Part shown: positions 8,854 through 48,370 of the stretch, piece by piece
Numbering within the stretch: the stretch's first letter is position 1
How the letters are laid out: every line of letters begins with the position of its first letter
Assembly: GCA_036574205.1 (NCBI GenBank)
Contig: JAINCQ010000014.1
Location: 1,634-65,633, forward strand
DNA: 64,000 bases
Source of the DNA: Elusimicrobiota bacterium
GTDB lineage: Bacteria; Elusimicrobiota; Elusimicrobia; Elusimicrobiales; UBA9959
Reading direction: 5' to 3'
Notes under the pieces: model-generated
The model's database searches: none
What the model was told of the DNA's origin: nothing
The model's input: only the letters and a program-made list of their open reading frames with translations
Made by a program: the position numbers and the translations under genes

Positions 8854-10101
8854 TCAAAATTTTCTAACCTTAAAACTGGTATTCTGAACACCGCTTGAGG
8901 CAGGCATTGTAATCATCTGAAATGCGAAAAACTCCCCTGTCTCAGGCATATAGATACCATAAGATTTAGAAAGAGCTGGAGTAAAAAACACAGGCTGGGT
9001 ATAACCTGTTAAATTAGACACCTCAGCCTGAGTCAGGCTTTCTATATTTTTATTAAACTCTTTCATCTTGCCGTTATGTTGAAGTTCGACCTGATCGTGA
9101 TAAACTATAAATTCTCCAATTTCTCCATTTATAGTCATATCATCATAATAATGACATCCTTTTTCTCCGGTTGTAAAGTAATATAAAGGATGTAGATATG
9201 GATCAACCCCTGAACAACTTATATTTACTATGCCAACACTTCCGCCAATATCGTCATCTATTATTACCATACCCTCGCCTTCACCGGGGGTCTGACCTGT
9301 TGCCACATTGTCGGCATCTGAAAGCCCAAATAAGAGAGGTTTTTTCATACTATAGAGTTTTAATTTATCCTCATCATATTTAAAAACCATCTCAGTCATT
9401 CTTTTATCTACTATGATCTGACCTGATTTTGAGCTTACAACACTCCTATTATAAGTAATTGAAACGCCAATCCCTTTCAAACCAGAAGTGATATTATTTA
9501 TTGAGTAGTTAATCTTTATATTATTTAAAGCAGTGAAGTCTCTTTTAACAGCAAGCTCTAAAAAGTCCTTGTCTCCCGCAAAATCATCTGAGACATAAGA
9601 CATAAATTTAGATAGACTTTTATTTGAATATGCCTCAAATATTTGATCTAAAATTTCCTTGACTTTAAGATTAATATTTTCCGCTGTAACCTCTATCTCT
9701 CTATAAGTCTCTTCAATATTATTCGTCTTACCAGCTGTATTTGTTATTTCAATATAAAACTTGTAACTCTTGTTTAACTCGGGGGTAAAAGAAAATTCAA
9801 AATCCCCGTTTTCAGAAAATTTTGCATCCTGCCAGCTATTTTTTGAATCCACACTTACCCTAACGCTTCCCACAACAGCCCCTTTGCCAGCTGAAGCTTT
9901 TCCCCTTATAATTACCTTCCCATCTTTTAAACTTTCTTTAAAAAATTTTATCTTTCTGGTAGTTTCATCAAAAGATATAGAATTTATAGTCATATACTTT
10001 ATTGAAACCTCATCCTTTGATTTGCCAAATATCCACCACTTTGCGCTTACAAAACCAGAAGTTATAAAAAATATAGCAAGTAATAATGTTATTTTTTTCA
10101 T
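8854..10101 (-). CDS. Secreted protein of unknown function, 415 aa (Ig-like N-terminal segment plus NTF2-like module)
   Basis: Signal peptide MKKITLLLAIFFITSGFVSA. A GGAGGAG Shine-Dalgarno site straddles the stop of the upstream barrel gene. The segment AYSNKSLSKFMSYVSDDF matches AYQSKSVSKLINLVDEDW in the 949-aa protein. Confidence 0.7.
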   Translation of the reverse strand: MKKITLLLAIFFITSGFVSAKWWIFGKSKDEVSIKYMTINSISFDETTRKIKFFKESLKDGKVIIRGKASAGKGAVVGSVRVSVDSKNSWQDAKFSENGDFEFSFTPELNKSYKFYIEITNTAGKTNNIEETYREIEVTAENINLKVKEILDQIFEAYSNKSLSKFMSYVSDDFAGDKDFLELAVKRDFTALNNIKINYSINNITSGLKGIGVSITYNRSVVSSKSGQIIVDKRMTEMVFKYDEDKLKLYSMKKPLLFGLSDADNVATGQTPGEGEGMVIIDDDIGGSVGIVNISCSGVDPYLHPLYYFTTGEKGCHYYDDMTINGEIGEFIVYHDQVELQHNGKMKEFNKNIESLTQAEVSNLTGYTQPVFFTPALSKSYGIYMPETGEFFAFQMITMPASSGVQNTSFKVRKF

Positions 10102-10109
10102 ATCTCCTC

Positions 10110-11653
10110 CTAAAACGAACTTGATATCTGAAAACTAACACTTTTCTCTCTAAAATCGTTTGTATCTGTTGAAAAATTATATTTATTATAAACTCCTCTT
10201 AAAGAAAAGGTTATATCTTTTTTCATTAAGATAGTTTTGTAATACAAATTAAAAGAGGCAAAAAGCTTATCTGAATCATCACCAATTTCTTTTCTCAAAA
10301 AATTCTGTCCTAATCTTATATCTCCGCTTATCTTCTTTTTAGGTTTCTCAAAGCCAAAAGCAAAAGAATATTCATATATTTTATCTGTCTCATTTGAAAG
10401 ATCATCATTTAAATACCAGCTTCCAACTGTAAACTGCGGCTTTATAATGGTATTTTCACTTTCTATATATTTATTAAAAGAGGTATTAAAGTTTATTTCG
10501 CTTGAATTTCTTATATCTGTATCTGTTTTGTAAATTGTATAGCCTAAGTTTGTATCATTCTCAATTCCACCATATTTGTCTTTATAGTTTAAGTTAAAGA
10601 AATGATCTTTTTGAGAATTGGCCCATATTTTCTATCAAATTTATAAGAAAAATTTACATATGAATATTGCCTTCTGGCAAATATCTTTTTAATACCTATA
10701 GAAATATCCGGTCTTATAGTGTATGTTGTGTCTGTTTTCTGGTTTTCTAAATTATCTCTATACCACAGAACTCCAGCATTTATGGTGGTCATCTTTGAAT
10801 ACTTATATCTCCACCTGGCTTTAACTTTCCTCCTATCGCTAACTGCTGAACCTAAAAGTGATAGGTAATCAGGCTCAACATTTTCATACTCTATAGTAAT
10901 CCTTGAAGGATCAGCATCTCCAACAAACTCAAACCTGTAGGCATCTCCCTTAAATGATTTATTTGAAATCTTTTCATCTGTATCTGATCTGGCATATTCT
11001 CCAGTTAACTCAAGTCCGGCAAATGGATTATATTTTAAATCAAGAGAATAATTTGATGAATCATACTTCTCGCTTTCACTCATAAGCTCTATATCTTTTG
11101 TATTTAAATAGTTAACCCCAAGATTAAAATCTCCTAAATTTTCTTTTAACTTTAAACCATACGCCTGTCTTTTTAAAACTCTTGTATCGGGATCTTTGAA
11201 ATAAGAATCCCATCTCGGATAGGTATGTCCAAAAATCGCTGTTATTTCAGGAAGTTTTGATTCTTCCTTTAAAAACTTATAACTTGCTCCTTTAAGCGAT
11301 GAAGCCAGGCTGTACTGTGAAAAGCTTTCAAATATATCACCGGCTGTTATCAAGTTATAACCTTTTTTAAAAGATCCAGTTATATTCATAAGAGATATAT
11401 TCTTAACATCGTTTCTTTTATCATCTGTAAATTTAACTCCAAGGTTATAGTTATAAGAAATATTGTCTTTTCTACCAGAGCCATTTATATTTAAAACATC
11501 TATATAATTCCATCCCTCTGTTAAAGAAGATGACCCCTTCCCCTCACCAGTTATATCATTATAATAAATATTAAAATCATTACTCATATGAAACTCAGTT
11601 TCACAATATAAAAAGCCAGAAAAAGAAAACAATAATATACCAATGAATTTCAT
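10110..11653 (-). pseudogene. Outer-membrane beta-barrel protein, reading frame broken once near 10592-10631
   Basis: The 354-aa ORF (11653-10589) has a signal peptide and alternating beta-strand-like sequence. A second frame is open from 10631 to 10110 and continues the same character, ending in an OMP-type C-terminal signal (VSFQISSSF). Adding one nucleotide would join the two frames. Confidence 0.6.
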
Positions 11654-37520: not shown

Positions 37521-39575
37521 TTACATTTTTTTTACATATTTTAACTTTTTTATTTTAGTACCAGGAAAATAGAACTCAAGTATTTCCCTGTAATTTTTAT
37601 TTTCTTTTCCAGCCATTCCAGCCGCCCCACCCTGGCACATTCCTATTGAATGCCCCCATCCACCACCATAAAACCATATATTTCTTATCTTTCCATCGGC
37701 AAATCTATTTATCTCAAGAGTGAACAAAGTGGATTTTAAAGAATTCAAACCAAAGCTGTTTCTTATAATATGCTCCTTTTCAATAAGAACAGTTCTTTTA
37801 GAACCAACTATTTTAATGGAATTTACATTTCCGCTTTTGCTTCTTTTTAAAACCATTATGCTTTTTAACTCGCCTATACCATATTTTTTATCAAGTTTGA
37901 AATTTATATCAGATTTTTTTATTATTCTAAGCCATCTAAACTCTGTATCTTTAACAACACCTGGATAGTTACAATAAGATTGTGGTGTGCTTTTTATCCA
38001 TATATTAAAATCCCATGGTCTTAAACCATTTTCATCTTTTAAGTTGCTGTCAGGATGAGAAACAAGATATTTTACATTTCCCCATCCTTTCACCTCTGAA
38101 GAAGATTGTATATACCCACCACAGTTTGAGTGATAAAAAGCATACGCTAACTTCCCTCCATATGTAAGGACTTCCCCTTCTGTGTCAAAAACAGCCTTAG
38201 TTGTTGAATTACTTTCATAAGAAACGCCACGATATACCTGACAATGTTCAGTGTCGCATAGATGATAACCCTCATTTCTATGAGGACTTTCTTTTATTCT
38301 TCTAACAGCCTCGGTTCTTGCCACTACAGCTTGAGCCTTAAGAGCTTCTATAGGCCATTTTGGCTCCATTTCTGCACCAACTACTCCAAGAAGATATACC
38401 TCAAGTTCTACAATATTCACAATCCCAAAGCCATTATTTAAAGGAACTATCTCTATCTCACCTCTATATTCTCTGTCAGAATATCTAAAATAAGGATTTG
38501 AGTTTCTCAAATCAGATTCTATAATAATTGTCCCATTCCTGATATCAGTTGGACGAAGGATAAAAGGCTTTGCGAACTTATTTATTAAAACTCCATTCTG
38601 GGAATAAATTAAAACTGTGCCATTTTCATATCTTATCTTCCATTTTTCTCCGGATTTAATAGTCAAATAATGCTTCCCACTTTCCTTCCCATAAACCTTT
38701 AAGTTATCAAAGCTTCTAAAAACTAGCTCCTTGTTTTTTCTATGTTTTCCCTCAGAGTTTGTCCCTATACCTATTCTTATCTTTATACTTCTCTTTAGAG
38801 TATTTATATCATATTTTCCGGTTATAATGGTCGGGTTTTTTATTTTAAACGGCGGCCTTATCTCCTCCGGCTGCTTTGTAAGTTTTCCTTCTATTATCTT
38901 TGTCATTTTTAAAGCAAGTGGATGGTCAGGGACGTAGTCAAGTACCCTGTAATACTGATTCCAGGCCTGATTATAATCCCCCTCTTTCAAATATAACTGA
39001 GCAAGAGGAAGCCTTGCTTCCACAAAGGATGGATCTTTTCTTAAAGTATTTATGAGATACTCCTTTGCATTTTCATACATCTTAAAATTAACATAATTCC
39101 AGGCAAATATATAATCCACTCCAGCGTAATCCCCCCTCAGGCTTTTGTATATATTTAAATAATCCATTGTTTTTATTATATCGTTTAAATGTGAATAGAC
39201 CGTTGCTATACCCAAAACAGCATTATAGTTCTGGTTATTTATTTTAAAAGCTCTTTCAAAATATATCCTGGCTCTTTCAAGATCACTCATATGAAAATAA
39301 AGCCAGCCGATTTCAGTTAAAACATCGTCGTTTTCATTTAATTGTATATATTTTTCAAGATACTCAATGGCTTTTTTATAATTATCCATATTCTTATAAA
39401 TCATTGCAAGATCCAATAGCGCGCTATAATCTTTTGTTGTTTCATAAAAAGCGAGATAATATTCAGCGGACTTATTAAGATCTCCATTAAGATAACTTTT
39501 ATATGCAAACTCCTTCAAATCGTATTTTTGAGAATTTAGAAAAAAAGAAAAAAAGAAAATTAGTTTTAAAATCAT
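37521..39575 (-). CDS. TPR-repeat protein fused to a SpoIID/LytB-type domain
   Basis: The N-terminal ~230 aa are TPR-like. The C-terminal part matches SpoIID-family patterns (YLLGVVGAEM...EALKAQAVVARTEA, HLCDTEHCQVYRG, AFYHSNCGG, GHSIGMCQGGA). Confidence 0.85.
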   Translation of the reverse strand: MILKLIFFFSFFLNSQKYDLKEFAYKSYLNGDLNKSAEYYLAFYETTKDYSALLDLAMIYKNMDNYKKAIEYLEKYIQLNENDDVLTEIGWLYFHMSDLERARIYFERAFKINNQNYNAVLGIATVYSHLNDIIKTMDYLNIYKSLRGDYAGVDYIFAWNYVNFKMYENAKEYLINTLRKDPSFVEARLPLAQLYLKEGDYNQAWNQYYRVLDYVPDHPLALKMTKIIEGKLTKQPEEIRPPFKIKNPTIITGKYDINTLKRSIKIRIGIGTNSEGKHRKNKELVFRSFDNLKVYGKESGKHYLTIKSGEKWKIRYENGTVLIYSQNGVLINKFAKPFILRPTDIRNGTIIIESDLRNSNPYFRYSDREYRGEIEIVPLNNGFGIVNIVELEVYLLGVVGAEMEPKWPIEALKAQAVVARTEAVRRIKESPHRNEGYHLCDTEHCQVYRGVSYESNSTTKAVFDTEGEVLTYGGKLAYAFYHSNCGGYIQSSSEVKGWGNVKYLVSHPDSNLKDENGLRPWDFNIWIKSTPQSYCNYPGVVKDTEFRWLRIIKKSDINFKLDKKYGIGELKSIMVLKRSKSGNVNSIKIVGSKRTVLIEKEHIIRNSFGLNSLKSTLFTLEINRFADGKIRNIWFYGGGWGHSIGMCQGGAAGMAGKENKNYREILEFYFPGTKIKKLKYVKKM

Positions 39576-39675
39576 AAGATTATTTTATTAAATTTATAAA
39601 AATATTTATTTAAAATCCTGTTTTAATCTTAAATCTTAAAAAAATAGTCTTATATTAACTTTGTAACATATAATT

Positions 39676-40236
39676 ATGGAGGATAATGAGCTAATAGAAG
39701 AATACTTAAACGGAGATGAAAAATCTTTTGAAAAACTCTACGAAAAATATAAAATCGCCCTGTTTAATTTTATATTTTACATGGTTAGAGATAAAGAATT
39801 GGCGAATGACCTGCTTCAGGAAGTTTTTATAAAGGTTATAGATAATATCTCAGAGTACCGTAACGAAAATTTTAAAGCCTGGATTTTTCTCATAGCAAGG
39901 AATAAAATTTATGATTATTTTAAAAGCAATAAAACAAAATTTGAACAGTCAAATATTTCCATTGATGAAGAGGTTAACGGAGTAAGTTATAAAGACATAT
40001 TGGAATCAGAAGATACCCCCCAAAAAATACTTTTAGAAAAAATTGAAAACGAAGTCCTCTACAAAGCTATTGACACACTAAAAGAAGAATACAGAGAAAT
40101 AATATATCTAAAACATTTTTCTCAACTTAGCTTTCAGGAAATATCAAAAATGCTTAACATTCCCATTGGGACGCTTCTTTCAAGATTTAAAAGAGCCATT
40201 GATAAGTTATCCGAAATTCTTTTAAAGATGCAATAA
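39676..40236 (+). CDS. ECF-type RNA polymerase sigma factor
   Basis: Region 2 (LLQEVFIKV...FKAWIFLIARNKIYDYF) and region 4 (REIIYLKHFSQLSFQEISKMLNIPIGTLLSRFKRA). Confidence 0.9.
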   Translation: MEDNELIEEYLNGDEKSFEKLYEKYKIALFNFIFYMVRDKELANDLLQEVFIKVIDNISEYRNENFKAWIFLIARNKIYDYFKSNKTKFEQSNISIDEEVNGVSYKDILESEDTPQKILLEKIENEVLYKAIDTLKEEYREIIYLKHFSQLSFQEISKMLNIPIGTLLSRFKRAIDKLSEILLKMQ

Positions 40237-40275
40237 TTTTTCTAAAAAATCGTTATTTATATTTGAGGAGAAGAA

Positions 40276-40680
40276 ATGTGTGATAAAGAAAAAATTATTC
40301 TGGCCTTCTATAACGAACTTAAAGAAGAAGAGAAAGAAAAAGTTTTATCTCATATAAAAGACTGCGCTGAATGTTTAAATTTTTACTCCTCACTAAATTA
40401 TTTAAACAAAATAAGAACTATTGAGGAAGTGGATCCAAATTCAAAAAAAGCTATTATAAACTACTTAAAAGAAAAGAACTTAAGATTAAACTCATATTTT
40501 AGAAAGTTAACATATTCTTTTGCTCTCTCATTTGCTGTCTTAATTATATTTATACTACCACAGAAACATACTTTTTTTGAGGATGAAAAGAATTTCAACT
40601 CAAAAATTTCAAACATAGAAAAAACTATTGAGTCATTAAATTATGATATTAAGTTTTCAGACCAAGATTTAGATTTTTAA
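40276..40680 (+). CDS. Anti-sigma factor (zf-HC2-like, single TM)
   Basis: HIKDCAEC (H-x3-C-x2-C) near the N-terminus and one TM helix (YSFALSFAVLIIFIL). It lies immediately downstream of the ECF sigma gene. Confidence 0.7.
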   Translation: MCDKEKIILAFYNELKEEEKEKVLSHIKDCAECLNFYSSLNYLNKIRTIEEVDPNSKKAIINYLKEKNLRLNSYFRKLTYSFALSFAVLIIFILPQKHTFFEDEKNFNSKISNIEKTIESLNYDIKFSDQDLDF

Positions 40681-40692
40681 AAAGGAGGAGTT

Positions 40693-41394
40693 ATGAAAAA
40701 AATAATTGTTACGCTCATTGCTGTAAGCATAATGGCGCCAGCGTTTGTAAACACGCTTGCCGCTCAAATAGATGAAGAGCCTGGGGAAGAAGATGTTCGT
40801 CCCGAAAACCCTGGTTTTGGCCCTCAAGCCCAGATGGGTTTTCAACCTGGAGAAAGAGGAATGATGGGCGGGTTGGGTGAAAGGAAAATGATGAAAAAGC
40901 CCGGAGTTGGTCCAAAAATGAACATAGGAAGAGCAGATCTTCAGGAAATTGAAGGGAAAGTAATTGAAATTATAAAGAAAAATGATCCTGAGTTTGCCAA
41001 AAAACTTGAGCAACTAAAAAAAGACGATCCATTTAAATACAGACAGGTTATAAAAATATCCTTCAATCTTATAAATTTTGAAAGAAATGCGGAAGATAAA
41101 ACAATAGAGAAGGATATTGTCAGGGGAATCTCTCTTGAATATGACGTAAGAGAACTTGCACTAAAATATGAAAAGGCATCTGTTTCAGACAAAGACAGGA
41201 TAAAAACCGAGATAAAATCCAAACTTAATGAGCTTTTTGATATAAGGACAAAAGCGCATGAGCTAAAAATTAAAAGACTTGAAGCTGAAGTAAGCGAACT
41301 AAAATCCACAATAACAAAGAGAAAAGCCAATAAAGATAAGATAGTTGAACAAAGATTAAATCAGATAATTGGCGGAAAAGAGCTTAACTGGTAG
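40693..41394 (+). CDS. Periplasmic protein with a Met/Gly/Pro-rich segment and a coiled-coil C-terminus
   Basis: Signal peptide MKKIIVTLIAVSIMAPAFV, then PGFGPQAQMGFQPGERGMMGGLGERKMMKKPGVGPKMN, then a helical K/E-rich region. AGGAGG lies upstream. Third gene of the ECF module. Confidence 0.6.
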   Translation: MKKIIVTLIAVSIMAPAFVNTLAAQIDEEPGEEDVRPENPGFGPQAQMGFQPGERGMMGGLGERKMMKKPGVGPKMNIGRADLQEIEGKVIEIIKKNDPEFAKKLEQLKKDDPFKYRQVIKISFNLINFERNAEDKTIEKDIVRGISLEYDVRELALKYEKASVSDKDRIKTEIKSKLNELFDIRTKAHELKIKRLEAEVSELKSTITKRKANKDKIVEQRLNQIIGGKELNW

Positions 41395-41402
41395 TAAATA
41401 GA

Positions 41403-41438
41403 AAATGGGCAGGCTACTTAAATAAAGCCTGCCCATTT
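41403..41438. terminator. Bidirectional stem-loop terminator between convergent genes
   Basis: AAATGGGCAGGC (41403-41414) pairs perfectly with GCCTGCCCATTT (41427-41438) around a 12-nt loop. A/T runs flank the stem on both sides. Confidence 0.7.
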
Positions 41439-41447
41439 AACACATTT

Positions 41448-42656
41448 TTATCTTATGTTATCTAAAAACTTAGAAGCGTCAATAAGCCCGTTGCCCTGCT
41501 CTGTATCTTTAAGATTGGGAAGTTTTATAGCCGCTTTAATCATAGCTGCCCTTACATCATCTGGATTTGTGACCCCAAGCCCAACAACTAAAGCAGCAAG
41601 ACCAGCAACATGCGGGCTTGCCATAGAGGTTCCGCTTAAAGTTTTATATGTATTTCCTTTATAGGTAGAATATATACTTACCCCTGGAGCAATAAAAGCA
41701 ATCTCTGGACCCCTTGATGAAAATGAAGCTATTTTATCTGATGAGTCAAGCGCTGAAACCGCAATTGCGCCGGGATATTTTGCAGGATAATTAACCGCTC
41801 CTCCATCATTACCTGCGGCACATACTACTACAACCCCGGCTTTATATGCTGCTTCAACTGCAGATTTTAAGGCTTCGCTTCCAGATGGTCCCCCAAGGCT
41901 CATATTAATAACATTCATTTTGTTTTTCACAGCCCACTGAATACCATCTATTATCCATGAATACTGTCCTGAACCATACTTATCAAGAACCTTTACAGCA
42001 TATAAACTAACATAGGGAGCCAGACCAACAACTCCTTTTAAATCCTTGATTGCTCCAATTGTCCCGGCAACATGCGTACCGTGGCCATGATCATCAAGAG
42101 GTGGTTTTGAAGTATCAACTGCGTTATACCCCCCAACATAATTTTTAGATAAATCCAGATGATTATAATCTATCCCGGTGTCTATTACAGCAACCTTAAC
42201 ATTTCTGCCGCTAGTATAATCCTACACTTTATAAGCATTTACTCTCTTAACCCCCCACGGAATTTCTTTTAATTCTTCATCGGTCAATTTTCCAGCAGTA
42301 AAAGTAACATCTTTTAAAAAATAATCATAATTATTTTCTTTTATATCTGCTTTTACGCTCTCAACTGATGGTAAATCTGGCAAAGTTATTTCTTCTATCC
42401 ATTTAATATATTTATCATCTTCAACGCTTTTTACCGCTTCTATAGAATAAATCTCAGAGTCTTTAATATAATCTGGAAATTGAGCTACCACGGCATTTAT
42501 AAACTCAAATTCTTTAATTACTTTTCCACCAAGTTTCTCAATATCTAATTTTGACATTGAAAGAGCTTTTGAATCATTGAGCATTATAATCTTCTGAGAT
42601 GAGTAAACACTTATTGAAATAAACAACATCGTTATAATAAATATAATCTTTCTCAT
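41448..42656 (-). pseudogene. Subtilisin-family serine protease (signal peptide, I9-like propeptide, S8 domain) with one in-frame TAG
   Basis: A single frame runs from ATG 42656 (behind AAAGGAGGA) to 41448. It contains [18 protein letters not shown] and [11 protein letters not shown], so the Asp/His/Ser triad is intact. The TAG at 42224-42222 falls in [21 protein letters not shown]. Confidence 0.8.
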
Positions 42657-42693
42657 TTTATCCTCCTTTATATTGATACACATCAATAAAATT

Positions 42694-42807: not shown

Positions 42808-44256
42808 TTACCACGCTAACTTTGATGGTGTTATTTCTTCCCAGGATTTTTTTATAAGAACCACATTTAAAGTAGGAAGGTCAAGGTTTTCATCAAAAAA
42901 TATTGACGCATTATTTCCTGATCCTGTATTAATATCGCCAACAACCCATATCGCCCCATATATATCAAAAGCACCATATATCTCAAGCCTCCCCCCAACA
43001 TAAAGGAACCCATAAAGTCCTATATCATCGCCGGTAGCGCCTCTTTCACACCCCTGCTCACAGCTTCCATCATTACATTGATAATAATAAGCCTTATTAC
43101 AGGCTCCTATTTGATATACTATAGAAGATGAACTTAAACCAAGGTCACCCGGATACTGGTTTGTGGCTGAAGTATCAATTTTAGCATACTCTCTCCAGGC
43201 GTTTGGTGGAACTGAAACATTTAATGCTCCAGGACCATCTTCTGATGCAGGACCTTTACCACAAAGATGATATCCACCGTAAGGATCATAACCATAAGTT
43301 TTATACCAGGGCCCATAGCAATCATCACCATCTATTCTTAAATTACCTCTTACAAAAAAAGAACCTTTAACCCCGGTATGTTTTAAGTAAACAGTTTTTC
43401 CTTCATCCCAGTACCACAAAAGACCCTGATTATATCTTCTGTCAGCATATATGTGTCTAACATAACATTTATTCTGGTCTGCACAGCATTTATTAGTATT
43501 GCCACTGCAGTTACAAACCATTAAATAATTATTGGAAGAGGATGGGGTTAGTGGTTTTAAGTTTTTTGCGCTTCCACAATTTAAAGTTCCATTTGCAGCC
43601 GCAGATGCCCTTATCGTTGCAAAATCAAACATCGGAAGTTCGGGGACATCATAAGCTGACCACCACTCTAAATTATCGGTATTTGGTGGGTTTAAGCTAT
43701 GATCTCTTGGTTTAACAAGCTGCTTTGAAAATTTTCTCGGGAAATAAACATTAGCTGCTCCAGCAGAAAGATTTATCTCCCCCCAACTCATTATAGAACC
43801 CCAATGAATAGTAGTTTTTCCACTTGGGTTTATTTTTGAACCGCTCAGCATAGCTCCTGATATACTCTGGTTTTGATAAACCGCTTTTATTGCTCTTATC
43901 TCCTGAGTTGAGTCATCTCTTCCCTCTCCTATTATAATAACCTCTCTGGCAACACTTCCACTGGCAACCAGAACTCTGTAACTTCCCCCAGAAATATCTG
44001 TATAAACTGTATCAAAAACATAACCACTTATATTGTTTCCCATCATAATACTTTCAAATGTTTTAGTTGAGCTTTTAATCTTCCAGTAACCCCTTTCAAC
44101 TGCAGCCTCCGCCAGATTAAGCGCTATAGATTTTTTCTGCTCTCTTATGGTTGACTTTGTATCTGTTGTAACCCAATTAAGGATTACAGGGACAATTATA
44201 AAAAAAATAACTATTGCCGTAACAAGCATTGGAAGAATGAAAGCTTTTCTTTTCAT
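42808..44256 (-). CDS. PilX/GspK-like minor pilin-type protein, Cys-rich (482 aa)
   Basis: The N-terminus MKRKAFILPMLVTAIVIFFII is pilin-like but has no Glu at +5, as in PilX/GspK. It is followed by AEAAVERGYWKI, about 14 Cys, and a C-terminal YGAFDIYGAIWVVGDI motif. Confidence 0.6.
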   Translation of the reverse strand: MKRKAFILPMLVTAIVIFFIIVPVILNWVTTDTKSTIREQKKSIALNLAEAAVERGYWKIKSSTKTFESIMMGNNISGYVFDTVYTDISGGSYRVLVASGSVAREVIIIGEGRDDSTQEIRAIKAVYQNQSISGAMLSGSKINPSGKTTIHWGSIMSWGEINLSAGAANVYFPRKFSKQLVKPRDHSLNPPNTDNLEWWSAYDVPELPMFDFATIRASAAANGTLNCGSAKNLKPLTPSSSNNYLMVCNCSGNTNKCCADQNKCYVRHIYADRRYNQGLLWYWDEGKTVYLKHTGVKGSFFVRGNLRIDGDDCYGPWYKTYGYDPYGGYHLCGKGPASEDGPGALNVSVPPNAWREYAKIDTSATNQYPGDLGLSSSSIVYQIGACNKAYYYQCNDGSCEQGCERGATGDDIGLYGFLYVGGRLEIYGAFDIYGAIWVVGDINTGSGNNASIFFDENLDLPTLNVVLIKKSWEEITPSKLAW

Positions 44257-44263
44257 AAAACCT

Positions 44264-44758
44264 CTAATCGTTCATAATTCTTACTTTCTCAGACGCCATA
44301 TGCAATGCCTTTTTCTTTGCGCTAAACAAATCCTTTTCAAGTGTAATTGAAACAGATAAAATTTCCATATTGCTTGACTCTGGAAAAACAAAAGCAAGAT
44401 ATCTTAAATCTGATGTTAACCTCATGGTCTTTGTTCCCTCAATCATCATAAGATCTCTTCCACTTTGATAAAACTGATAGTTTCTTCCGTCAATTGTTGA
44501 AAAAGTTATCTTTGAATAAAATGGTTCATTAGAACTCTGTCTTGATATTGAAATAGAACTTGCTTGTGCCTCTCTTAAAACTCTGGTTATCAAAAACATT
44601 ATATTCCTTGCATCCTGTTGAAGAGATAATCTTGTTTTAGACATCATTATATTTTGATTGATTGTATTTAAAACTGGAACACCTGTGGCTATTAATATTC
44701 CTATTATTGCAACTACCCCCATTAATTCTGTCAATGTAAAAGCCTTTCTTTTCACCAT
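44264..44758 (-). CDS. Prepilin-type N-terminal cleavage/methylation domain protein (164 aa pseudopilin)
   Basis: MVKRKAFTLTELMGVVAIIGILIA has the class III signal (A|FTLTE, Glu at +5) followed by a hydrophobic helix. Its start overlaps the upstream gene by 7 nt. Confidence 0.8.
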   Translation of the reverse strand: MVKRKAFTLTELMGVVAIIGILIATGVPVLNTINQNIMMSKTRLSLQQDARNIMFLITRVLREAQASSISISRQSSNEPFYSKITFSTIDGRNYQFYQSGRDLMMIEGTKTMRLTSDLRYLAFVFPESSNMEILSVSITLEKDLFSAKKKALHMASEKVRIMND

Positions 44759-47274
44759 AAGAAATCTATTCCTCCTGTGGTTTGCCCTGCCAGTACGCTA
44801 ATATTGGTTCTTGAACTCCAGTATATGGTAAATGATGAAACATTAAGATATGGATAATATGAATAAACATTATAAGTCGGATTTGTAGATTGCCTTACCT
44901 CAATCAAATAATTTCCTTCCTCATCTGAAGAAGCCATATAATAAGGCGCGCCAGTTATGCTTTGCGAGCTTAAAGTTGGAAGTGAGGGAGGAGAGCCAGT
45001 AAGGCTTACTGTTGTTACCACAATCAAAGCTCCGCTTCTAATAGGAGAACCCCCATATTTAACACTCCCCCTTACATAGCCAAGAGCATTTGATATGGTA
45101 AAAGTTGTTGAAAAAATGGTACTTCCGGCTGTAGTTATACTGACGGCTTTTGTAGATGGCGAGACTGTTTCTTTCGAATCCACTATAGGCGAAACCACAT
45201 AATTTCCTGTGCTTAAAACATTTGTTATAAACCTTCCATTGTTTGATGTTATCTGCTGATCTCTTGGAACATCATACGCGTCATATACAACAACTGAAAT
45301 CCCGCCAATTGGAATCGTACTCCCGGCAATTGTAACATATCCACTTATCCTTCCACCCTGATATAGGACGAAATCAACGCTTGATTTAATCTCTCCGGCT
45401 GACACATATATTCCAGCAGAGGATATTGAAACATATCTATTGTCAAGATTGTTTGGATTGGCTGTAACCTCAACAAAACCGGTTGAAACCGCAAGTAAAT
45501 ACCTTTTATTTGATTGTACATATGTGTATCCCCCGTCATTTGACACAACCTTAATCGCCGGGCTTATGGGATTACCGAAAACATCAGTTACCATACCGCT
45601 TATATATCCCCATGTTATCATAGAAGAAAGAAAAATTGAGTTTAATGTTGAAGTAGATCCATTTGTTACAGTAAGCGAGTCTATTATAACAGCGTAATTT
45701 GCGCTTGAAATAGAACAGCTCCAGGTACCAGTAGCTATTTCATTTAGCTCAAAATAAGGATATGGAGGTAAGCCTCTTACATATGCTATTGTTGAAATGG
45801 AAAGACCATCTGAACATCCAACAAATGCTCCATTTGCAGGGGTTCCAGATATAACTGGTAAAACTGTCACTGAATTTTTTGGCGAGATTGATATTCCTGA
45901 TGAGTAATCATGAAAATCAAGACTATTATTATTTGAATCATAAGCCGGACCGTAAGATGAATTTACTCCAGCTGTTGATGAATATCTGACATACTGCTCA
46001 CCCTGCTGGAGCCCAATATTTTGCGGTATAGCAGATGTCTCATAAAAAGGTGCAGTCTTTTTCCCACTTGCACCATTATTTCTGTTCCATCCTACCTTAT
46101 CCAGGATAGTATTATCAGAAATTTTATATAACTCAATTGCTCCCCCCCCTTCATCAGGACCATCTACAGAAACAGGTATTATGTTATATTGAGAAAGCGA
46201 AGGATTAAAATATGGAAAATCCAATGATGAATTTGAGTTAGACCAGACAGCATCTGCTTCTATAGATTCCCCGTTTATCGTAATAGGCGTTGTATTAGCA
46301 AATAAATAAAAACCACCACCAGGGATATAATCAGTAATATAATTTATTTGAATATTTTTCTTATTCTCGTCATAAATTCTTTGAAATTTTAACCCAATAT
46401 CTCCATTGACAAGCCAGGAATATGTTGTTGGATTGTATATCTCAATATACTCCTGATCAAAACCTTCGGGGTTTATGGTAGAGCCAACTATCTGAGATAT
46501 TACAAGATGGTCTTTTAACCACGGATAGCCAGTCATTTTACCATATCCCATCCTTGTAAGTAAAACATCTTTAGAAAGAGTCTGGTTTGGAGCTATTGTA
46601 AAAAAACCAAGATATGGGAAATATCCTCTTGCTTCAACATAAAGAGTATAATTCCCCGGTGTAAGATTAACTGTATAATCTCCATTAATATCGCTCACAT
46701 CCTGCATCCCCATATATTCTGCTATATTGATAAAAGCTCCCTGGATAGGAGCCAATGTGGATGAATCTTTAATCCGTCCGGTAATGGCAGCATTTGACAT
46801 AACTGTTTCTTTGTTTGTGTATATACTTGAAATCTGAACTTTTTTCTTTTCTCCATGGTATGTCCACACAACTGTAACTGTTATTTTTTTCATCCCTGTA
46901 TCCGGGGATTCTGGCGGCAGTTCCTGAATAATTCCAGCAGTTTCCAACACGGGAACTATATATGTGTATCTTGTATAATAAACCCCCGCTTCAAGTATAG
47001 TCTCAGGCGGAAAAAAATATGTATCATAAGCAATTGCGGGAGAAAAATCACTTATATAAGCTATCTGTGTTGATGGAACAACCCTATAATAAAGTTTTTG
47101 TTTTAAAATTTGCATTTTTTCCTGAGCAAGATTTACAGCTATTGTTCTATCCTTTGAAAACTGAATGGCTTTTTGAATCCCTTTAAAAGACTCAACTATA
47201 ACCACAATAACAACCGAAAGAATTACCACGCTTATCATCAATTCTGTTATTGTAAATCCTTTCTTAATCTTCAT
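44752..47274 (-). CDS. Giant pilin-like protein: prepilin N-terminus, pseudopilin core, lamin-tail-like domain and about 4 carboxypeptidase-regulatory-like domains
   Basis: The N-terminus MKIKKGFTITELMISVVILSVV contains G|FTITE. There is an LTD-like EYIEIYNPTT...AIELYKISDNTILDKVGW segment. Repeated modules of the form G(R/Y)(I/V)xGxV...GxYxxxVxxGxY occur (ITGRIKD...NGDYTVNLTPGNYTLYV, ISGMVTD, ISGYVTI...NGRFITNVLSTGNYVV, VRGSVKY...EGNYLIEV). Confidence 0.8.
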   Translation of the reverse strand: MKIKKGFTITELMISVVILSVVIVVIVESFKGIQKAIQFSKDRTIAVNLAQEKMQILKQKLYYRVVPSTQIAYISDFSPAIAYDTYFFPPETILEAGVYYTRYTYIVPVLETAGIIQELPPESPDTGMKKITVTVVWTYHGEKKKVQISSIYTNKETVMSNAAITGRIKDSSTLAPIQGAFINIAEYMGMQDVSDINGDYTVNLTPGNYTLYVEARGYFPYLGFFTIAPNQTLSKDVLLTRMGYGKMTGYPWLKDHLVISQIVGSTINPEGFDQEYIEIYNPTTYSWLVNGDIGLKFQRIYDENKKNIQINYITDYIPGGGFYLFANTTPITINGESIEADAVWSNSNSSLDFPYFNPSLSQYNIIPVSVDGPDEGGGAIELYKISDNTILDKVGWNRNNGASGKKTAPFYETSAIPQNIGLQQGEQYVRYSSTAGVNSSYGPAYDSNNNSLDFHDYSSGISISPKNSVTVLPVISGTPANGAFVGCSDGLSISTIAYVRGLPPYPYFELNEIATGTWSCSISSANYAVIIDSLTVTNGSTSTLNSIFLSSMITWGYISGMVTDVFGNPISPAIKVVSNDGGYTYVQSNKRYLLAVSTGFVEVTANPNNLDNRYVSISSAGIYVSAGEIKSSVDFVLYQGGRISGYVTIAGSTIPIGGISVVVYDAYDVPRDQQITSNNGRFITNVLSTGNYVVSPIVDSKETVSPSTKAVSITTAGSTIFSTTFTISNALGYVRGSVKYGGSPIRSGALIVVTTVSLTGSPPSLPTLSSQSITGAPYYMASSDEEGNYLIEVRQSTNPTYNVYSYYPYLNVSSFTIYWSSRTNISVLAGQTTGGIDFLW

Positions 47275-47296: not shown

Positions 47297-47325
47297 AGTT
47301 TATACTTAACTGCTAAATATGTCAA
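47297..47325 (-). promoter_or_regulatory. Candidate promoter of the pilin-like operon
   Basis: The minus strand reads TTGACA (47325-47320), a 17-nt spacer, then TAAACT (47302-47297). It lies only about 23 nt from the ATG, and no clear SD follows. AT-rich DNA yields many chance matches of this kind. Confidence 0.35.
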
Positions 47326-47495
47326 TAGTTTTGTTTTATAATAAACATCTCTATTGTTAGTTTTTTCTAAAATCCAAAACTTTAATCTGTAATTATACAC
47401 AATATAGGTCCAATTTACTATTAATTATTGCCTTTTTTTCACTTATAAAATGATATAATTTCTTTTAAAATATATAAGGACTTTAAGGGGGGATT

Positions 47496-47648
47496 ATGAT
47501 GCTATATAAAGAATTAATAAAAAAAAGAGCAAACGAAAGAAAATCTCAAAACTCTTATAATTCAAGGCTCAATAACTGGCAAAAGATAATGGATTCAACC
47601 AACAAGCTTCTTAATTATTATTTAATATCAACATCAAAACAAAATTAG
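47496..47648 (+). CDS. Possible small basic protein (50 aa), below the ORF-track size cutoff
   Basis: AAGGGGGGA lies 5-6 nt upstream of ATGATG. The ORF reads MMLYKELIKKRANERKSQNSYNSRLNNWQKIMDSTNKLLNYYLISTSKQN*. Nothing else is annotated in the 370-nt gap. Confidence 0.3.
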   Translation: MMLYKELIKKRANERKSQNSYNSRLNNWQKIMDSTNKLLNYYLISTSKQN

Positions 47649-48370
47649 TTTTTTTTGATTCTTTCTATAAGAGCTTGTGGATATCCAATATCAATAACTT
47701 TAAGAATGCCTATGTTTTTCTGTGCACAAGCAGCCATAAGCCCGGATTTTGGGAGTCCCATTGTAAGAGTTAAAACCGCTTTTATAAAAACTCCGGTATG
47801 ATGACCTGTATCTGGATTTAATCCAGATGGTATATCTATTGCAATTATGTCTTTTTTAGTCCTATTTGCAATTTGAATCATTTTTTTTACTACTGCCACT
47901 GGCTTTCCAACAGCACTTATCCCCAGCAAAGCGTCAATTATTATATCAGCTTCATTTAACTTGCTTTCAATCTCAGTTATATTTCTAAGAGTGCATAAAT
48001 TTATATCAATTGACTTTTCTTTTGCTTTATTAAGATTCTTTACCACAAGTTCTGGATACCCTCTATCAGAAGGGTTTATTATGAAAATTTTCACATTATT
48101 AAAACCTAAATCCTTTAAATATCTTGCGCATACAAGACCATCCCCCCCATTATGCCCCCTTCCGCATAATACAGATATATTTATCTCAAAATTATTAAAT
48201 TTTTCTTTTACATAATTTGCGACCTCATTTGCGCAAGCTTTACCAGCATTTTCCATCAGGGTCTGTGACGATATTGAATAATCAAGTGTTGCAAGTCTGT
48301 CTATGTATTTCATTTTTTCGGAAGTGACAACAGGCAAGCCATTATATTCTTTTATATTTGGAATTTTCAT
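47645..48370 (-). CDS. nnrE: NAD(P)H-hydrate epimerase (YjeF N-terminal domain)
   Basis: VLCGRGHNGGDGLVCARYL and DALLGIS...IAIDIPSGL, the YjeF_N signature. Confidence 0.8.
   Translation of the reverse strand: MKIPNIKEYNGLPVVTSEKMKYIDRLATLDYSISSQTLMENAGKACANEVANYVKEKFNNFEINISVLCGRGHNGGDGLVCARYLKDLGFNNVKIFIINPSDRGYPELVVKNLNKAKEKSIDINLCTLRNITEIESKLNEADIIIDALLGISAVGKPVAVVKKMIQIANRTKKDIIAIDIPSGLNPDTGHHTGVFIKAVLTLTMGLPKSGLMAACAQKNIGILKVIDIGYPQALIERIKKN

What the first reader, a model, noticed from the sequence alone, without database searches (positions are those of the whole stretch)
44752..47274. 840-aa protein with a canonical prepilin N-terminus fused to a lamin-tail-like domain and four carboxypeptidase-regulatory-like domains
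Seen in the sequence:
- KKG|FTITELMISVVILSVV, a class III signal with Glu at +5.
- A ~130-aa pseudopilin-like core ending ITVTVVWTYHGEKKKVQISSIY.
- A segment at about aa 255-397 (about nt 46515-46080) with EYIEIYNPT...AIELYKISDNTILDKVGW, the hallmark of lamin-tail domains.
- Four beta-sandwich modules with GxIxGxV...GxYxxxxxxGxYxV signatures.

Ordinary type IV pilins and T2SS pseudopilins are about 120-200 aa. A pilin anchor carrying roughly 700 aa of extracellular modules suggests a pilus-tip or pilus-displayed adhesin or binding protein. LTDs have been linked to DNA or surface binding. The gene heads a three-gene pilin-like operon.
Basis: partly seen in the sequence, partly recalled or inferred. 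Interest (0 to 1): 0.7.

Follow-up and report, generated by a model that had tools for sequence, protein, structure and literature searches.

The report
Giant modular minor pilin, tip cassette
This is a real, phylum-wide conserved gene for an oversized pilus subunit in Elusimicrobiota: a GspI/PilV-type minor pilin carrying a roughly 680-residue stalk of beta-sandwich modules, encoded with two partner pilins that most likely form the tip of a type IV filament; it is a new member of the already described class of "modular pilins".

Summary
ORF 44752-47274(-) encodes an 840-aa protein (NCBI MEF3279831.1, Elusimicrobiota MAG). It has a prepilin signal that passes curated cut-offs (MKIKKG|FTITE, Glu+5), a pilin fold, four mutually homologous CarboxypepD_reg-like modules, and a lamin-tail-like module.

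The LTD is below Pfam's cut-off in this copy, but 19 of 21 family members tested hit it. Only module 1 passes the CarboxypepD_reg cut-off by sequence; hhalign links the other three.

New findings:
- The pilin module is I-class (ComGE, GspI and PilV models hit 16, 14 and 11 of 16 members).
- The third gene product (482 aa, no Glu5) has one significant fold match, Thermus ComZ, a beta-solenoid K-class tip pilin.
- The three-gene cassette is conserved in about 35 Elusimicrobiota loci at 29-73% identity, in unrelated flanks and never beside assembly machinery.

Best explanation: an I-(J/H)-K core minor-pilin complex primes and caps a type IV filament and displays the stalk at its tip. The ligand is unknown. 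The stalk, especially the LTD, is acidic, which disfavours DNA binding.

Modular pilins, including N_methyl-PF13620 and N_methyl-LTD fusions, were catalogued in 2021. Verdict: new member of a known kind, moderate interest.

The parts
47297..47325 (-). Promoter-like site TTGACA-17-TAAACT, ending about 22 nt upstream of the ATG of the 840-aa gene
   Evidence: Consensus scan, 10 of 12 matches; sequence read. This is a consensus match only, and the region has no more such sites than shuffled sequence.
44752..47274 (-). Gene for the 840-aa modular I-class minor pilin (NCBI MEF3279831.1)
46795..47274 (-). Pilin module, aa 1-160: leader MKIKKG, cleavage before F7, Glu+5 (E11), alpha-1 helix 9-59, beta-sheet 71-153. 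I-class (GspI/PilV/ComGE-like).
   Evidence: N_methyl and TIGR02532 pass their cut-offs. In NCBIfam, ComGE hits 16/16 members, GspI 14/16, PilV 11/16 and XpsI 8/16, all below equivalog cut-offs and covering alpha-1 only. Secondary structure from the AF2 model.
46546..46794 (-). CarboxypepD_reg module 1 (aa 161-243)
   Evidence: PF13620 43.7 bits against a cut-off of 32.3. Foldseek against carboxypeptidase D domain II (1qmu): rmsd 1.1 over 78 columns.
46075..46545 (-). Lamin-tail-like domain (aa 244-400) with an insertion at about aa 345-377; strongly acidic
   Evidence: PF00932 22.8 bits, below the cut-off of 34.3, in this copy. 19 of 21 family members hit it, best E 6e-9. Conserved EYxExxNPT...VGW motif. 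Net charge -10.
45829..46074 (-). Conserved extension after the LTD (aa 401-482), few regular strands, no family assignment
45619..45828 (-). Unassigned beta-sandwich module X (aa 483-552) with two Cys
   Evidence: Strands in the model. hhalign gives only 30-35% probability to CR1 and CR3. No Pfam hit.
45361..45618 (-). CarboxypepD_reg-like module 2 (aa 553-638)
   Evidence: hhalign to CR1 96.4% (E 1.3e-9) and to CR4 96.2%. No Pfam hit on its own.
45088..45360 (-). CarboxypepD_reg-like module 3 (aa 639-729)
   Evidence: PF13620 22.3 bits, E 1.7e-4, below the cut-off. hhalign to CR2 93.2%.
44755..45087 (-). CarboxypepD_reg-like module 4 (aa 730-840)
   Evidence: hhalign to CR2 96.2%, E 2e-9.
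44264..44758 (-). Gene for the 164-aa prepilin (KRKA|FTLTE, Glu+5); minor-pilin class unresolved (J or H). Its start overlaps the end of the large gene by 7 nt.
   Evidence: N_methyl 23.7 bits, passes. In NCBIfam, prepilin domain 32/34 members, GspJ 17/34, GspH 20/34, GspG 27/34. Conserved in 34 loci.
42808..44256 (-). Gene for the 482-aa K-class (PilX/GspK/ComZ-like) minor pilin: hydrophobic alpha-1, no Glu5, Cys-rich, large beta-rich insertion
   Evidence: AF2 pLDDT 87.6, pTM 0.82. The only significant Foldseek PDB hits are ComZ 6qvi, E 6e-8 to 1e-6, probability 1.0. PilX_N in 4 of 30 members. No Glu5 in the alignment. 12 Cys.

Best explanation
The three co-oriented genes, which overlap or are 7 nt apart (840 aa, 164 aa, 482 aa), encode a core minor-pilin set of a type IV filament (type IVa, Com-like or T2SS-like) in an Elusimicrobiota bacterium.

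Proposed mechanism, by analogy with the GspI-J-K / PilV-W-X / PilA2-ComZ complexes:
1. A prepilin peptidase encoded elsewhere cleaves the subunits after Gly6 of the large protein, and after Ala at -1 of its partners.
2. The subunits assemble in the inner membrane through their alpha-1 helices.
3. The Glu5-less, ComZ-like 482-aa subunit sits on top as the cap.
4. The I-class 840-aa subunit and the 164-aa pilin lie beneath it and prime polymerisation of a major pilin. The complex therefore ends up at the filament tip.

The special feature is that the I-class subunit carries about 680 residues C-terminal to its pilin module: CarboxypepD_reg, LTD, an unassigned beta module, then three more CarboxypepD_reg-like modules. 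My rough estimate, about 3-4 nm per module and not measured on the model, is a stalk of about 20 nm. It would be displayed at or beside the tip as the effector, most likely a binding or adhesion appendage for a non-DNA ligand such as a glycan, a surface polymer or another cell.

Shown: the sequence features, the folds, module homology, I-class and K-class affinities, conservation of the cassette, and separation from the machinery. Inferred: processing, complex formation, tip location, ligand.
For: - Prepilin motif passes curated cut-offs; Glu+5 is conserved.
- Pilin fold in a confident model.
- I-class model hits in 16/16 (ComGE), 14/16 (GspI) and 11/16 (PilV) members.
- The partner lacks Glu5 and its only significant fold match is ComZ. 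PilX_N hits 4 of 30 members.
- In the partner's model, three strands follow alpha-1, then a long insert, then a final strand at 467-475. This fits ComZ's insertion between the penultimate and last strand (PMC6561018).
- Gene order I-x-K, with genes overlapping or 7 nt apart.
- The cassette is conserved at 29-73% identity in about 35 Elusimicrobiota loci with unrelated flanks.
- Literature framework: the HIJK complex is tip-located, K lacks Glu5 and I nucleates (PMC9934059). ComZ binds its I-class neighbour PilA2. Beta-solenoid PilX subunits occur in cyanobacterial core priming complexes (bioRxiv 10.64898/2026.02.12.705559). Modular pilins are proposed to be tip-exposed (PMC8179133).
- The stalk is net acidic, the LTD at -8.5 on average, and all modules are about equally conserved.
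Against: - No assembly ATPase, platform, secretin or prepilin peptidase lies in the 64-kb window or within +-10 kb of about 40 related loci. The partner machinery is unidentified.
- I-class hits are all below equivalog cut-offs and cover only alpha-1.
- PDB sequence profiles could not discriminate pilin classes.
- The class of the 164-aa pilin is ambiguous, and no H-class gene is in the cassette.
- The ComZ match has low TM (about 0.25) and high rmsd despite probability 1.0.
- A bulky appendage on the I subunit has to pass an outer-membrane secretin; this was not examined.
- No heteromer was modelled.
Confidence: 0.65

Rival explanations
1. Competence (DNA-uptake) pilus tip. The cassette is the Elusimicrobiota counterpart of Thermus PilA2-PilA3-ComZ, and its role is to capture extracellular DNA. 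The LTD-bearing stalk would contribute to DNA binding or nuclease-like DNA handling.
For: - The K-class partner's only fold match is ComZ, a DNA-binding competence pilin (PMC6561018).
- The best I-class model is ComGE, the competence minor pilin, in 16/16 members.
- Bacterial LTDs are often fused to secreted nucleases such as ExeM and DNase I-family enzymes (PMC6085458, PMC4486849).
- Endomicrobium (Elusimicrobiota) genomes are enriched in comEC/comF/dprA-type genes, and their route for DNA across the outer membrane is unexplained (PMC8809381).
Against: - The LTD module is strongly acidic (mean -8.5, sd 2.8) and every stalk module is neutral to negative.
- Removing the LTD from ExeM did not abolish DNA degradation, and the function of bacterial LTDs is unresolved.
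- Beta-solenoid PilX subunits also occur in non-competence (motility/EPS) pili of cyanobacteria, so a ComZ-like fold does not imply DNA binding.
- The DNA-contacting lysines of ComZ were not mapped here.
Confidence: 0.15
2. T2SS pseudopilus tip. The three proteins are GspI/J/K equivalents of a type II secretion system. The stalk acts in the periplasm or secretin vestibule, for example as a substrate adaptor or plug, and is not displayed on a surface pilus.
For: - GspI and XpsI models hit 14/16 and 8/16 members.
- The ComZ pilin domain is closest to GspK.
- A three-gene I-J-K set without H mirrors the crystallised GspK-I-J core (cited).
- T2SS have been reassigned to many non-proteobacterial phyla (PMC6668835).
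Against: - T2SS genes, minor pseudopilins included, are typically clustered with gspD/E/F (my background knowledge, not checked here). None lies within +-10 kb in about 40 loci, whereas the motif scan did find ATPases next to ordinary I-class pilins in L045 and L046.
- A six-module stalk, which I estimate at about 20 nm, would span or exceed the periplasm.
- The T4F survey's text mentions only Tad systems as newly detected for Elusimicrobia.
Confidence: 0.1
3. Not a filament subunit. The prepilin-type N-terminus serves only as an inner-membrane anchor or export signal for a periplasmic or cell-surface beta-sandwich protein, for example an envelope-spanning scaffold linked to the neighbouring SpoIID / ECF-sigma / S8 protease envelope genes.
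For: - The cassette is never next to assembly machinery.
- It lies within about 4 kb of a SpoIID / ECF sigma / p233 / S8 block in at least 11 loci.
- NCBI annotates the protein only as 'carboxypeptidase-like regulatory domain-containing protein'.
Against: - Gly-1, Glu+5 and the alpha-1C motif (A-x-NLAQEK) are conserved phylum-wide.
- The gene is strictly coupled to a second prepilin and a Glu5-less K-class pilin.
- All of this is hard to explain without filament-type assembly.
Confidence: 0.08

Closest known systems
Modular type IV pilins (S. sanguinis PilB and PilC; catalogue of Raynaud et al. 2021, PMC8179133)
   Same: An N-terminal IPR012902/N_methyl pilin module is fused to non-pilus domains, and these pilins are proposed to be tip-exposed effectors. 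The catalogue already lists N_methyl-PF13620 (66 proteins, third commonest architecture) and N_methyl-LTD (6 proteins).
   Different: The combined N_methyl-PF13620-LTD architecture with further modules is not in that list. Here the carrier is the I-class subunit, whereas in S. sanguinis the I-like subunit (PilA) is plain and the modules sit on PilB and PilC. There are six or seven modules rather than one or two. The lineage is diderm Elusimicrobiota.
Thermus thermophilus PilA2 / PilA3 / ComZ competence pilins (PMC6561018)
   Same: An I-class pilin sits next to a large K-class pilin with a beta-solenoid inserted into the pilin fold. ComZ is the only significant fold match of the 482-aa partner. 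ComZ binds the I-class PilA2 and is argued to cap the tip.
   Different: PilA2 has only a small subdomain, not a 680-aa stalk. The Thermus locus has four minor pilins next to the major pilin gene. DNA binding is shown for ComZ but not tested here. Sequence identity is about 10%.
GspK-GspI-GspJ and the HIJK core minor-pilin tip complex (T2SS, T4aP); cyanobacterial FimT-PilW-PilV-PilX sets
   Same: An I-class nucleator and a Glu5-less bulky K cap in the same gene order. Beta-solenoid PilX subunits are proposed as the tip plug where PilY1 is absent.
   Different: No H-class gene is in the cassette. The middle gene's class is unresolved. The cassette is unlinked from the machinery. The effector is fused to I rather than delivered by PilY1 or carried on K.
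CofB / TcpB (type IVb initiator minor pilins)
   Same: A large minor pilin with C-terminal beta-repeat and beta-sandwich domains behind a flexible linker, tip-located and needed to start assembly (as described in PMC8179133 and PMC6561018).
   Different: These belong to type IVb systems, act as homotrimers, have different domains, and have no I/K partners. No sequence or fold match was seen here.
Verru_Chthon cassette proteins (TIGR02596, TIGR02599)
   Same: Stand-alone multi-gene cassettes of prepilin-like proteins. The cassette organisation is recalled from memory of the TIGRFAMs description and was not checked here. Protein C's model hits all 34 of the 164-aa partners and 4 of 16 I-modules.
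   Different: Scores are far below the cut-off (about 22 bits against 256.5) and cover only the N-terminus, so these are not members.

Membership tests
Type IV pilin / pseudopilin (class III signal peptide) | Short basic leader ending in Gly(-1), hydrophobic +1 residue, Glu at +5; N_methyl motif above the curated cut-off | tested here: met
   MKIKKG|FTITE. PF07963 23.2 bits against 21.2; TIGR02532 21.1 against 16.3. E11 is at least 90% conserved in 76 sequences.
Type IV pilin / pseudopilin (class III signal peptide) | Extended N-terminal alpha-1 helix packed on an antiparallel beta-sheet | tested here: met
   AF2 model pLDDT 87: helix 9-59, strands 71-153. Read from the secondary-structure string only; coordinates were not inspected.
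Type IV pilin / pseudopilin (class III signal peptide) | Cleavage and N-methylation by a prepilin peptidase, and incorporation into a filament built by a PilB/GspE-type machine | not testable with these tools
   No such genes are in the window or within +-10 kb of about 40 loci. pilD is reported in published Endomicrobium genomes.
I-class minor pilin (GspI / PilV / ComGE) | Match to the equivalog models at or above their cut-offs | tested here: not met
   ComGE 35-37 bits against 49; GspI 18-22 bits against 44.35. Hits cover alpha-1 only. The family-wide preference is nevertheless consistent: 16/16, 14/16 and 11/16 members.
I-class minor pilin (GspI / PilV / ComGE) | Encoded with, and binding, J- and K-class partners; K lacks Glu5 | tested here: inconclusive
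   The gene context fits: a Glu5-less ComZ-like protein is two genes downstream. The middle pilin's class is ambiguous. Binding was not tested.
Modular pilin (sensu Raynaud et al. 2021) | [quoted passage not shown] | tested here: met
   N_methyl plus PF13620 both pass their cut-offs in the same chain. Definition from PMC8179133.
Lamin tail domain (PF00932) | Score at or above the Pfam gathering threshold (34.3 bits) | tested here: not met
   22.3-22.8 bits, E 1.2-1.8e-4, in the window copy.
Lamin tail domain (PF00932) | Family-level homology: near full-length profile coverage, conserved hallmark motif, all-beta fold | tested here: met
   Profile positions 7-108 of 109 are covered. 19 of 21 members hit it, best E 6e-9, with no rival family. 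E275, E278, N281, P282, T284, G395 and W396 are conserved. About 10 strands in the model. No PDB sequence match to lamin tails, and the fold was not compared domain-wise.
CarboxypepD_reg (PF13620), four copies | Each module matches the family | tested here: inconclusive
   Module 1 passes (43.7 against 32.3). Module 3 is sub-threshold (22.3 bits). Modules 2 and 4 get no Pfam hit. hhalign links all four at 93-96% probability. 1qmu superposes at rmsd 1.1 on module 1.
ComZ / beta-solenoid PilX (K-class) - for the 482-aa partner | Pilin fold with a large beta-solenoid inserted before the last strand; no Glu5 | tested here: met
   Foldseek against 6qvi: E 6e-8, probability 1.0, and the next hits are ice-binding solenoids at E > 0.04. 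Strand order in the model fits. No Glu5. Caveat: TM about 0.25.
ComZ / beta-solenoid PilX (K-class) - for the 482-aa partner | Binds DNA and the I-class neighbour | not testable with these tools
   These are biochemical properties of ComZ; no multimer prediction was available.
Type II secretion system (gsp operon) | Pseudopilin genes clustered with gspD/E/F | tested here: not met
   No T2SSE ATPase or secretin motif in the window or in L001-L042. The positive controls L045 and L046 were detected. Pfam scan of window ORFs of at least 120 aa.

The most novel reading that the evidence does not exclude
Elusimicrobiota use a machinery-unlinked, three-gene 'tip module' in which the normally small nucleator subunit (I-class) has itself become the effector. 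It would project a multi-module, acidic, LTD-containing stalk (my rough estimate is about 20 nm) from the filament tip. This would give the first defined extracellular role for a bacterial lamin-tail domain, for example cation-bridged capture of a polymer or attachment to another cell. It might be co-regulated or processed by the recurrently adjacent ECF-sigma / S8 protease block.
Probability: 0.12. Interest if true: 0.6.

Novelty: new member of a known kind. Interest (0 to 1): 0.36.

Why it matters
Minor pilins decide what a type IV filament does, and Elusimicrobiota are a barely cultivated phylum whose pilin-like genes are unexplained (PMC8809381 calls their retention 'puzzling'). This cassette is a concrete, conserved and confidently modelled candidate tip complex.

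- It shows that the I-class nucleator subunit can also be the carrier of effector modules.
- It extends ComZ-like beta-solenoid caps to another phylum.
- It offers a tractable context for asking what bacterial lamin-tail domains bind.

It does not change the current picture of how type IV filaments work.

Tried and rejected
1. Whole-chain Foldseek of the 840-aa model against the PDB returned only generic tandem beta-sandwich stalks (TIE, SdrD, PitA, RrgB, FimD and others). It gave nothing specific for the pilin or LTD modules. Domain-wise fold searches were not possible because the model could not be cut.
2. PDB sequence-profile searches matched only pilin alpha-1N helices and carboxypeptidase/NOMO transthyretin-like domains. 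This was true for the whole family, the LTD region and the pilin module. There were no lamin tails and no GspI/PilV. The LTD profile's only hit was a spurious Kelch repeat matching 'vEvyNPtt'.
3. The PDB sequence profile of the 482-aa partner found nothing; only the fold search worked.
4. Exact-product look-ups of the source contig failed. The protein's NCBI identity came from the cluster look-up. It was masked in the homology search because a 43-aa fragment represents its cluster.
5. The hunt for assembly machinery found none. It covered Pfam on 51 of the 58 listed window ORFs of at least 120 aa, plus motif scans of 54 loci. Literature searches gave only pilD, Tad loci and assorted pilins for the phylum. 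The E. minutum genome paper (PMC2681670) is not held.
6. I considered that the inverted segment upstream of the operon might be a fimS-like phase switch. The flanking inverted repeats are short and AT-rich, and the comparison is between species, so this is not supported.
7. I considered the LTD as a DNA binder and down-weighted it because of its charge.
8. NCBIfam could not assign the 164-aa pilin to the J or H class.

Full report
**1. Observation**

The ORF at 44752..47274 on the minus strand is 840 aa and begins MKIKKGFTITELMISVVILSVV.

- Prepilin motif. PF07963 (N_methyl) scores 23.2 bits against a curated cut-off of 21.2. NCBIfam TIGR02532 scores 21.1 against 16.3.
- Conservation. In an alignment of 76 homologues, Glu at +5 (E11) is at least 90% conserved. 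The alpha-1C motif around N48-L49-A50-Q51-E52 is invariant or nearly so.
- Fold. An AlphaFold2 model built on that alignment is confident (mean pLDDT 87, pTM 0.60). It shows a helix at residues 9-59 followed by a beta-sheet at 71-153, the pilin fold. After that comes a chain of beta-rich modules at about 162-239, 244-400 (with an extension to 482), 484-549, 555-624, 641-728 and 731-827.

Its scale, conservation and domain content are far beyond chance. There are 257 homologues, and the top 120 listed are nearly all full-length at 780-902 aa.

**2. Domain claims**

CarboxypepD_reg. PF13620 is clearly present once: aa 164-239 scores 43.7 bits alone against a cut-off of 32.3. It is marginal at aa 643-716 (22.3 bits, E 1.7e-4). 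The segments 550-640 and 726-840 get no Pfam hit on their own.

I sliced the family alignment into modules and ran hhalign between them. CR1-CR2 gave 96.4% probability (E 1.3e-9), CR2-CR4 gave 96.2% (E 2e-9) and CR2-CR3 gave 93.2% (E 3e-7). So 'four carboxypeptidase-regulatory-like modules' is right, but only at profile level. A further module (aa 483-552) stays unassigned.

LTD. PF00932 covers profile positions 7-108 of 109 but scores only 22.8 bits against a cut-off of 34.3, so this copy fails Pfam's own threshold. At family level the call is sound:
- 19 of 21 homologous middle segments hit PF00932 at E <= 0.01, best 6e-9, and no other family competes.
- The EYxExxNPT...VGW residues are invariant or nearly so.
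- No lamin tail was reached by PDB sequence profiles.

**3. What the pilin module is**

I scanned the first 160 residues of 16 diverse members against NCBIfam. ComGE hit 16 of 16, GspI 14 of 16, PilV 11 of 16 (best E 1.3e-9) and XpsI 8 of 16. These four models describe the same subunit class, 'I' in the HIJK nomenclature, in Com pili, T2SS and T4aP.

All scores are below the equivalog cut-offs and the matches cover alpha-1 only. I therefore treat this as a class affinity and not as membership.

Ordinary 134-151-aa pilins with the same 'SIA(S/V)NLAQEKME' motif sit next to T2SSE-type ATPases in an actinobacterial MAG and in Propionispora (L045, L046). This shows what the unextended relatives look like.

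**4. The operon and its partners**

The 164-aa gene overlaps the end of the large gene by 7 nt, and the 482-aa gene follows after a 7-nt gap. A TTGACA-17-TAAACT promoter-like site ends about 22 nt upstream of the first ATG.

The 164-aa product is a canonical prepilin (KRKA|FTLTE; N_methyl 23.7 bits). Its class is unresolved: GspJ hit 17 of 34 members, GspH 20 of 34 and GspG 27 of 34. It also has a full-length profile match to Thermus PilA5 at E 2e-4.

The 482-aa product has the hydrophobic alpha-1 helix but no Glu5.
- 4 of 30 members hit PilX_N.
- JGI names some homologues 'Tfp pilus assembly protein PilX'.
- Its AF2 model is confident (pLDDT 87.6, pTM 0.82).
- Against the PDB it has exactly one significant relative, ComZ of Thermus thermophilus (6qvi; E 6e-8 to 1e-6, probability 1.0). 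Ice-binding beta-solenoids follow at E > 0.04.

ComZ is a K-class pilin with a beta-solenoid inserted between the penultimate and last strands. It binds its I-class neighbour PilA2 and is argued to cap the competence pilus (PMC6561018). The strand order in my model fits that topology: three strands after alpha-1, a long insert, then a last strand at 467-475. The TM-score is low (about 0.25), so the relative domain geometry differs or is uncertain.

**5. Conservation and context**

The same three-gene cassette occurs in about 35 loci, almost all labelled Elusimicrobia, Elusimicrobiota or Elusimicrobiales; a few titles are generic ('bacterium') or name another phylum (L008). It comprises a large pilin of about 820-940 aa, a pilin of about 165 aa with an overlapping start, and a Glu5-less protein of 420-590 aa. 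Identity to the window protein runs from 29 to 73%, and the flanking genes are otherwise unrelated.

Nothing in the 64-kb window is pilus machinery. A motif scan for T2SSE ATPases and secretins was negative in all of those loci and positive in the two control loci. The cassette is therefore a self-contained module that must work with machinery encoded elsewhere, as is common for T4aP and Com systems (PMC6668835).

The source is an NCBI Elusimicrobiota MAG. The three proteins are MEF3279831.1 ('carboxypeptidase-like regulatory domain-containing protein'), MEF3279830.1 ('prepilin-type...') and MEF3279829.1 ('hypothetical protein K6357_02530').

**6. Mechanism**

The best-supported reading is an I-(J/H)-K core minor-pilin complex. 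It assembles in the inner membrane, is capped by the Glu5-less ComZ-like subunit, primes polymerisation of a major pilin, and so ends up at the filament tip (framework: PMC9934059; the cyanobacterial preprint).

What is distinctive is that the I subunit carries the effector: about 680 residues in six or seven beta modules. My rough size estimate of about 20 nm assumes 3-4 nm per module and was not measured on the model.

Ligand. The stalk is acidic. Mean net charge is -8.5 for the LTD, -2.9 for its extension, -3.2 for module X, and between -0.1 and -1.7 for the CR modules. All modules are about equally conserved. This argues against electrostatic DNA binding and against rapid diversifying selection. 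PF13620 has been described as having a carbohydrate-binding-like fold. I therefore favour a non-DNA ligand such as a glycan, polymer or cell surface, but this is inference.

The rivals are scored in the report sections: a competence-pilus tip (0.15), a T2SS pseudopilus tip (0.10) and a non-filament anchor (0.08).

**7. Comparison and novelty**

Modular pilins are an established class. Raynaud et al. (2021) counted 1,219 such proteins in 264 architectures. These include N_methyl-PF13620 (66 proteins, third most frequent) and N_methyl-LTD (6 proteins). The combined PF13620 + LTD architecture is not in that list.

In the one worked-out tip complex with modular pilins, that of S. sanguinis, the I-like subunit is the plain one. 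My literature searches found no description of this Elusimicrobiota family.

I file it as a new member of a known kind, with a noteworthy twist: the effector sits on the I subunit, it is paired with a ComZ-like cap, and it is conserved across the phylum. Interest is moderate.

**8. Limits**

- Processing, complex formation, tip location and ligand are all inferred.
- No multimer prediction, domain-wise fold comparison or whole-genome machinery scan could be run.
- I-class and LTD assignments for this particular copy are below the curated thresholds.

Noticed in passing
window 41448-42686 (-), stop codon at 42219-42221: The subtilase (Peptidase_S8) gene directly downstream of the cassette is split by a single in-frame TAG (K-V-*-D-Y, probably TGG to TAG). 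One reading frame aligns over 404 aa at 74% identity to the intact 411-aa orthologue in L003. It could be a pseudogene, a sequencing error or read-through.
   Followed up: partly
window about 47443-47654 (small ORF 47496-47648, +) versus L003 3360-3564: A conserved 50-aa ORF with a strong AAGGGGGG Shine-Dalgarno lies in the 370-nt gap upstream of the pilin operon. The roughly 210-bp segment that carries it is inverted in L003 relative to the window, while L004 and L013 share the window's orientation. The flanking inverted repeats are only short and AT-rich, so a phase-variation switch is not supported.
   Followed up: partly
window 37521-42686; L003, L005-L007, L011, L021, L026, L031, L036, L040: A block of SpoIID-TPR protein, ECF sigma factor, anti-sigma-like protein, a 233-aa secreted coiled-coil protein and the S8 protease lies within about 4 kb of the pilin cassette in at least 11 loci. 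Some of these are distant (31-49% identity), and the block can be upstream or downstream of the cassette. The sigma sub-block is inverted in L003. A regulatory or processing link to the cassette is possible but untested.
   Followed up: partly
window 5953-8802 (-) and 8854-10101 (-): Two large ORFs (949 aa and 415 aa) with Sec-type signal peptides and no Pfam match at E <= 1e-5, near a porin-like 354-aa gene (10589-11653).
   Followed up: no
window 44264-44758 and 42808-44256; L004, L005, L013: In the window's clade, the residue at -1 of the predicted prepilin cleavage site in the 164-aa and 482-aa proteins is Ala or Ser rather than the Gly seen in most other loci. The 840-aa protein keeps Gly in the window but has Ala in L004 and L005.
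   Followed up: no
L023 9965-11782 and L038 9785-11875 (MAG JBGAON, which also holds the full cassette in L002): The same genome has extra partial paralogues that start at the LTD and lack the pilin module (605 aa in L023, 696 aa in L038). In L023 the paralogue is still followed by a small prepilin gene. These may be decayed or repurposed copies.
   Followed up: no
(protein collection): The window's 840-aa protein was invisible in the homologue search because its 90% cluster is represented by a 43-aa fragment, so an identical deposited sequence (MEF3279831.1) did not appear as a hit.
   Followed up: yes
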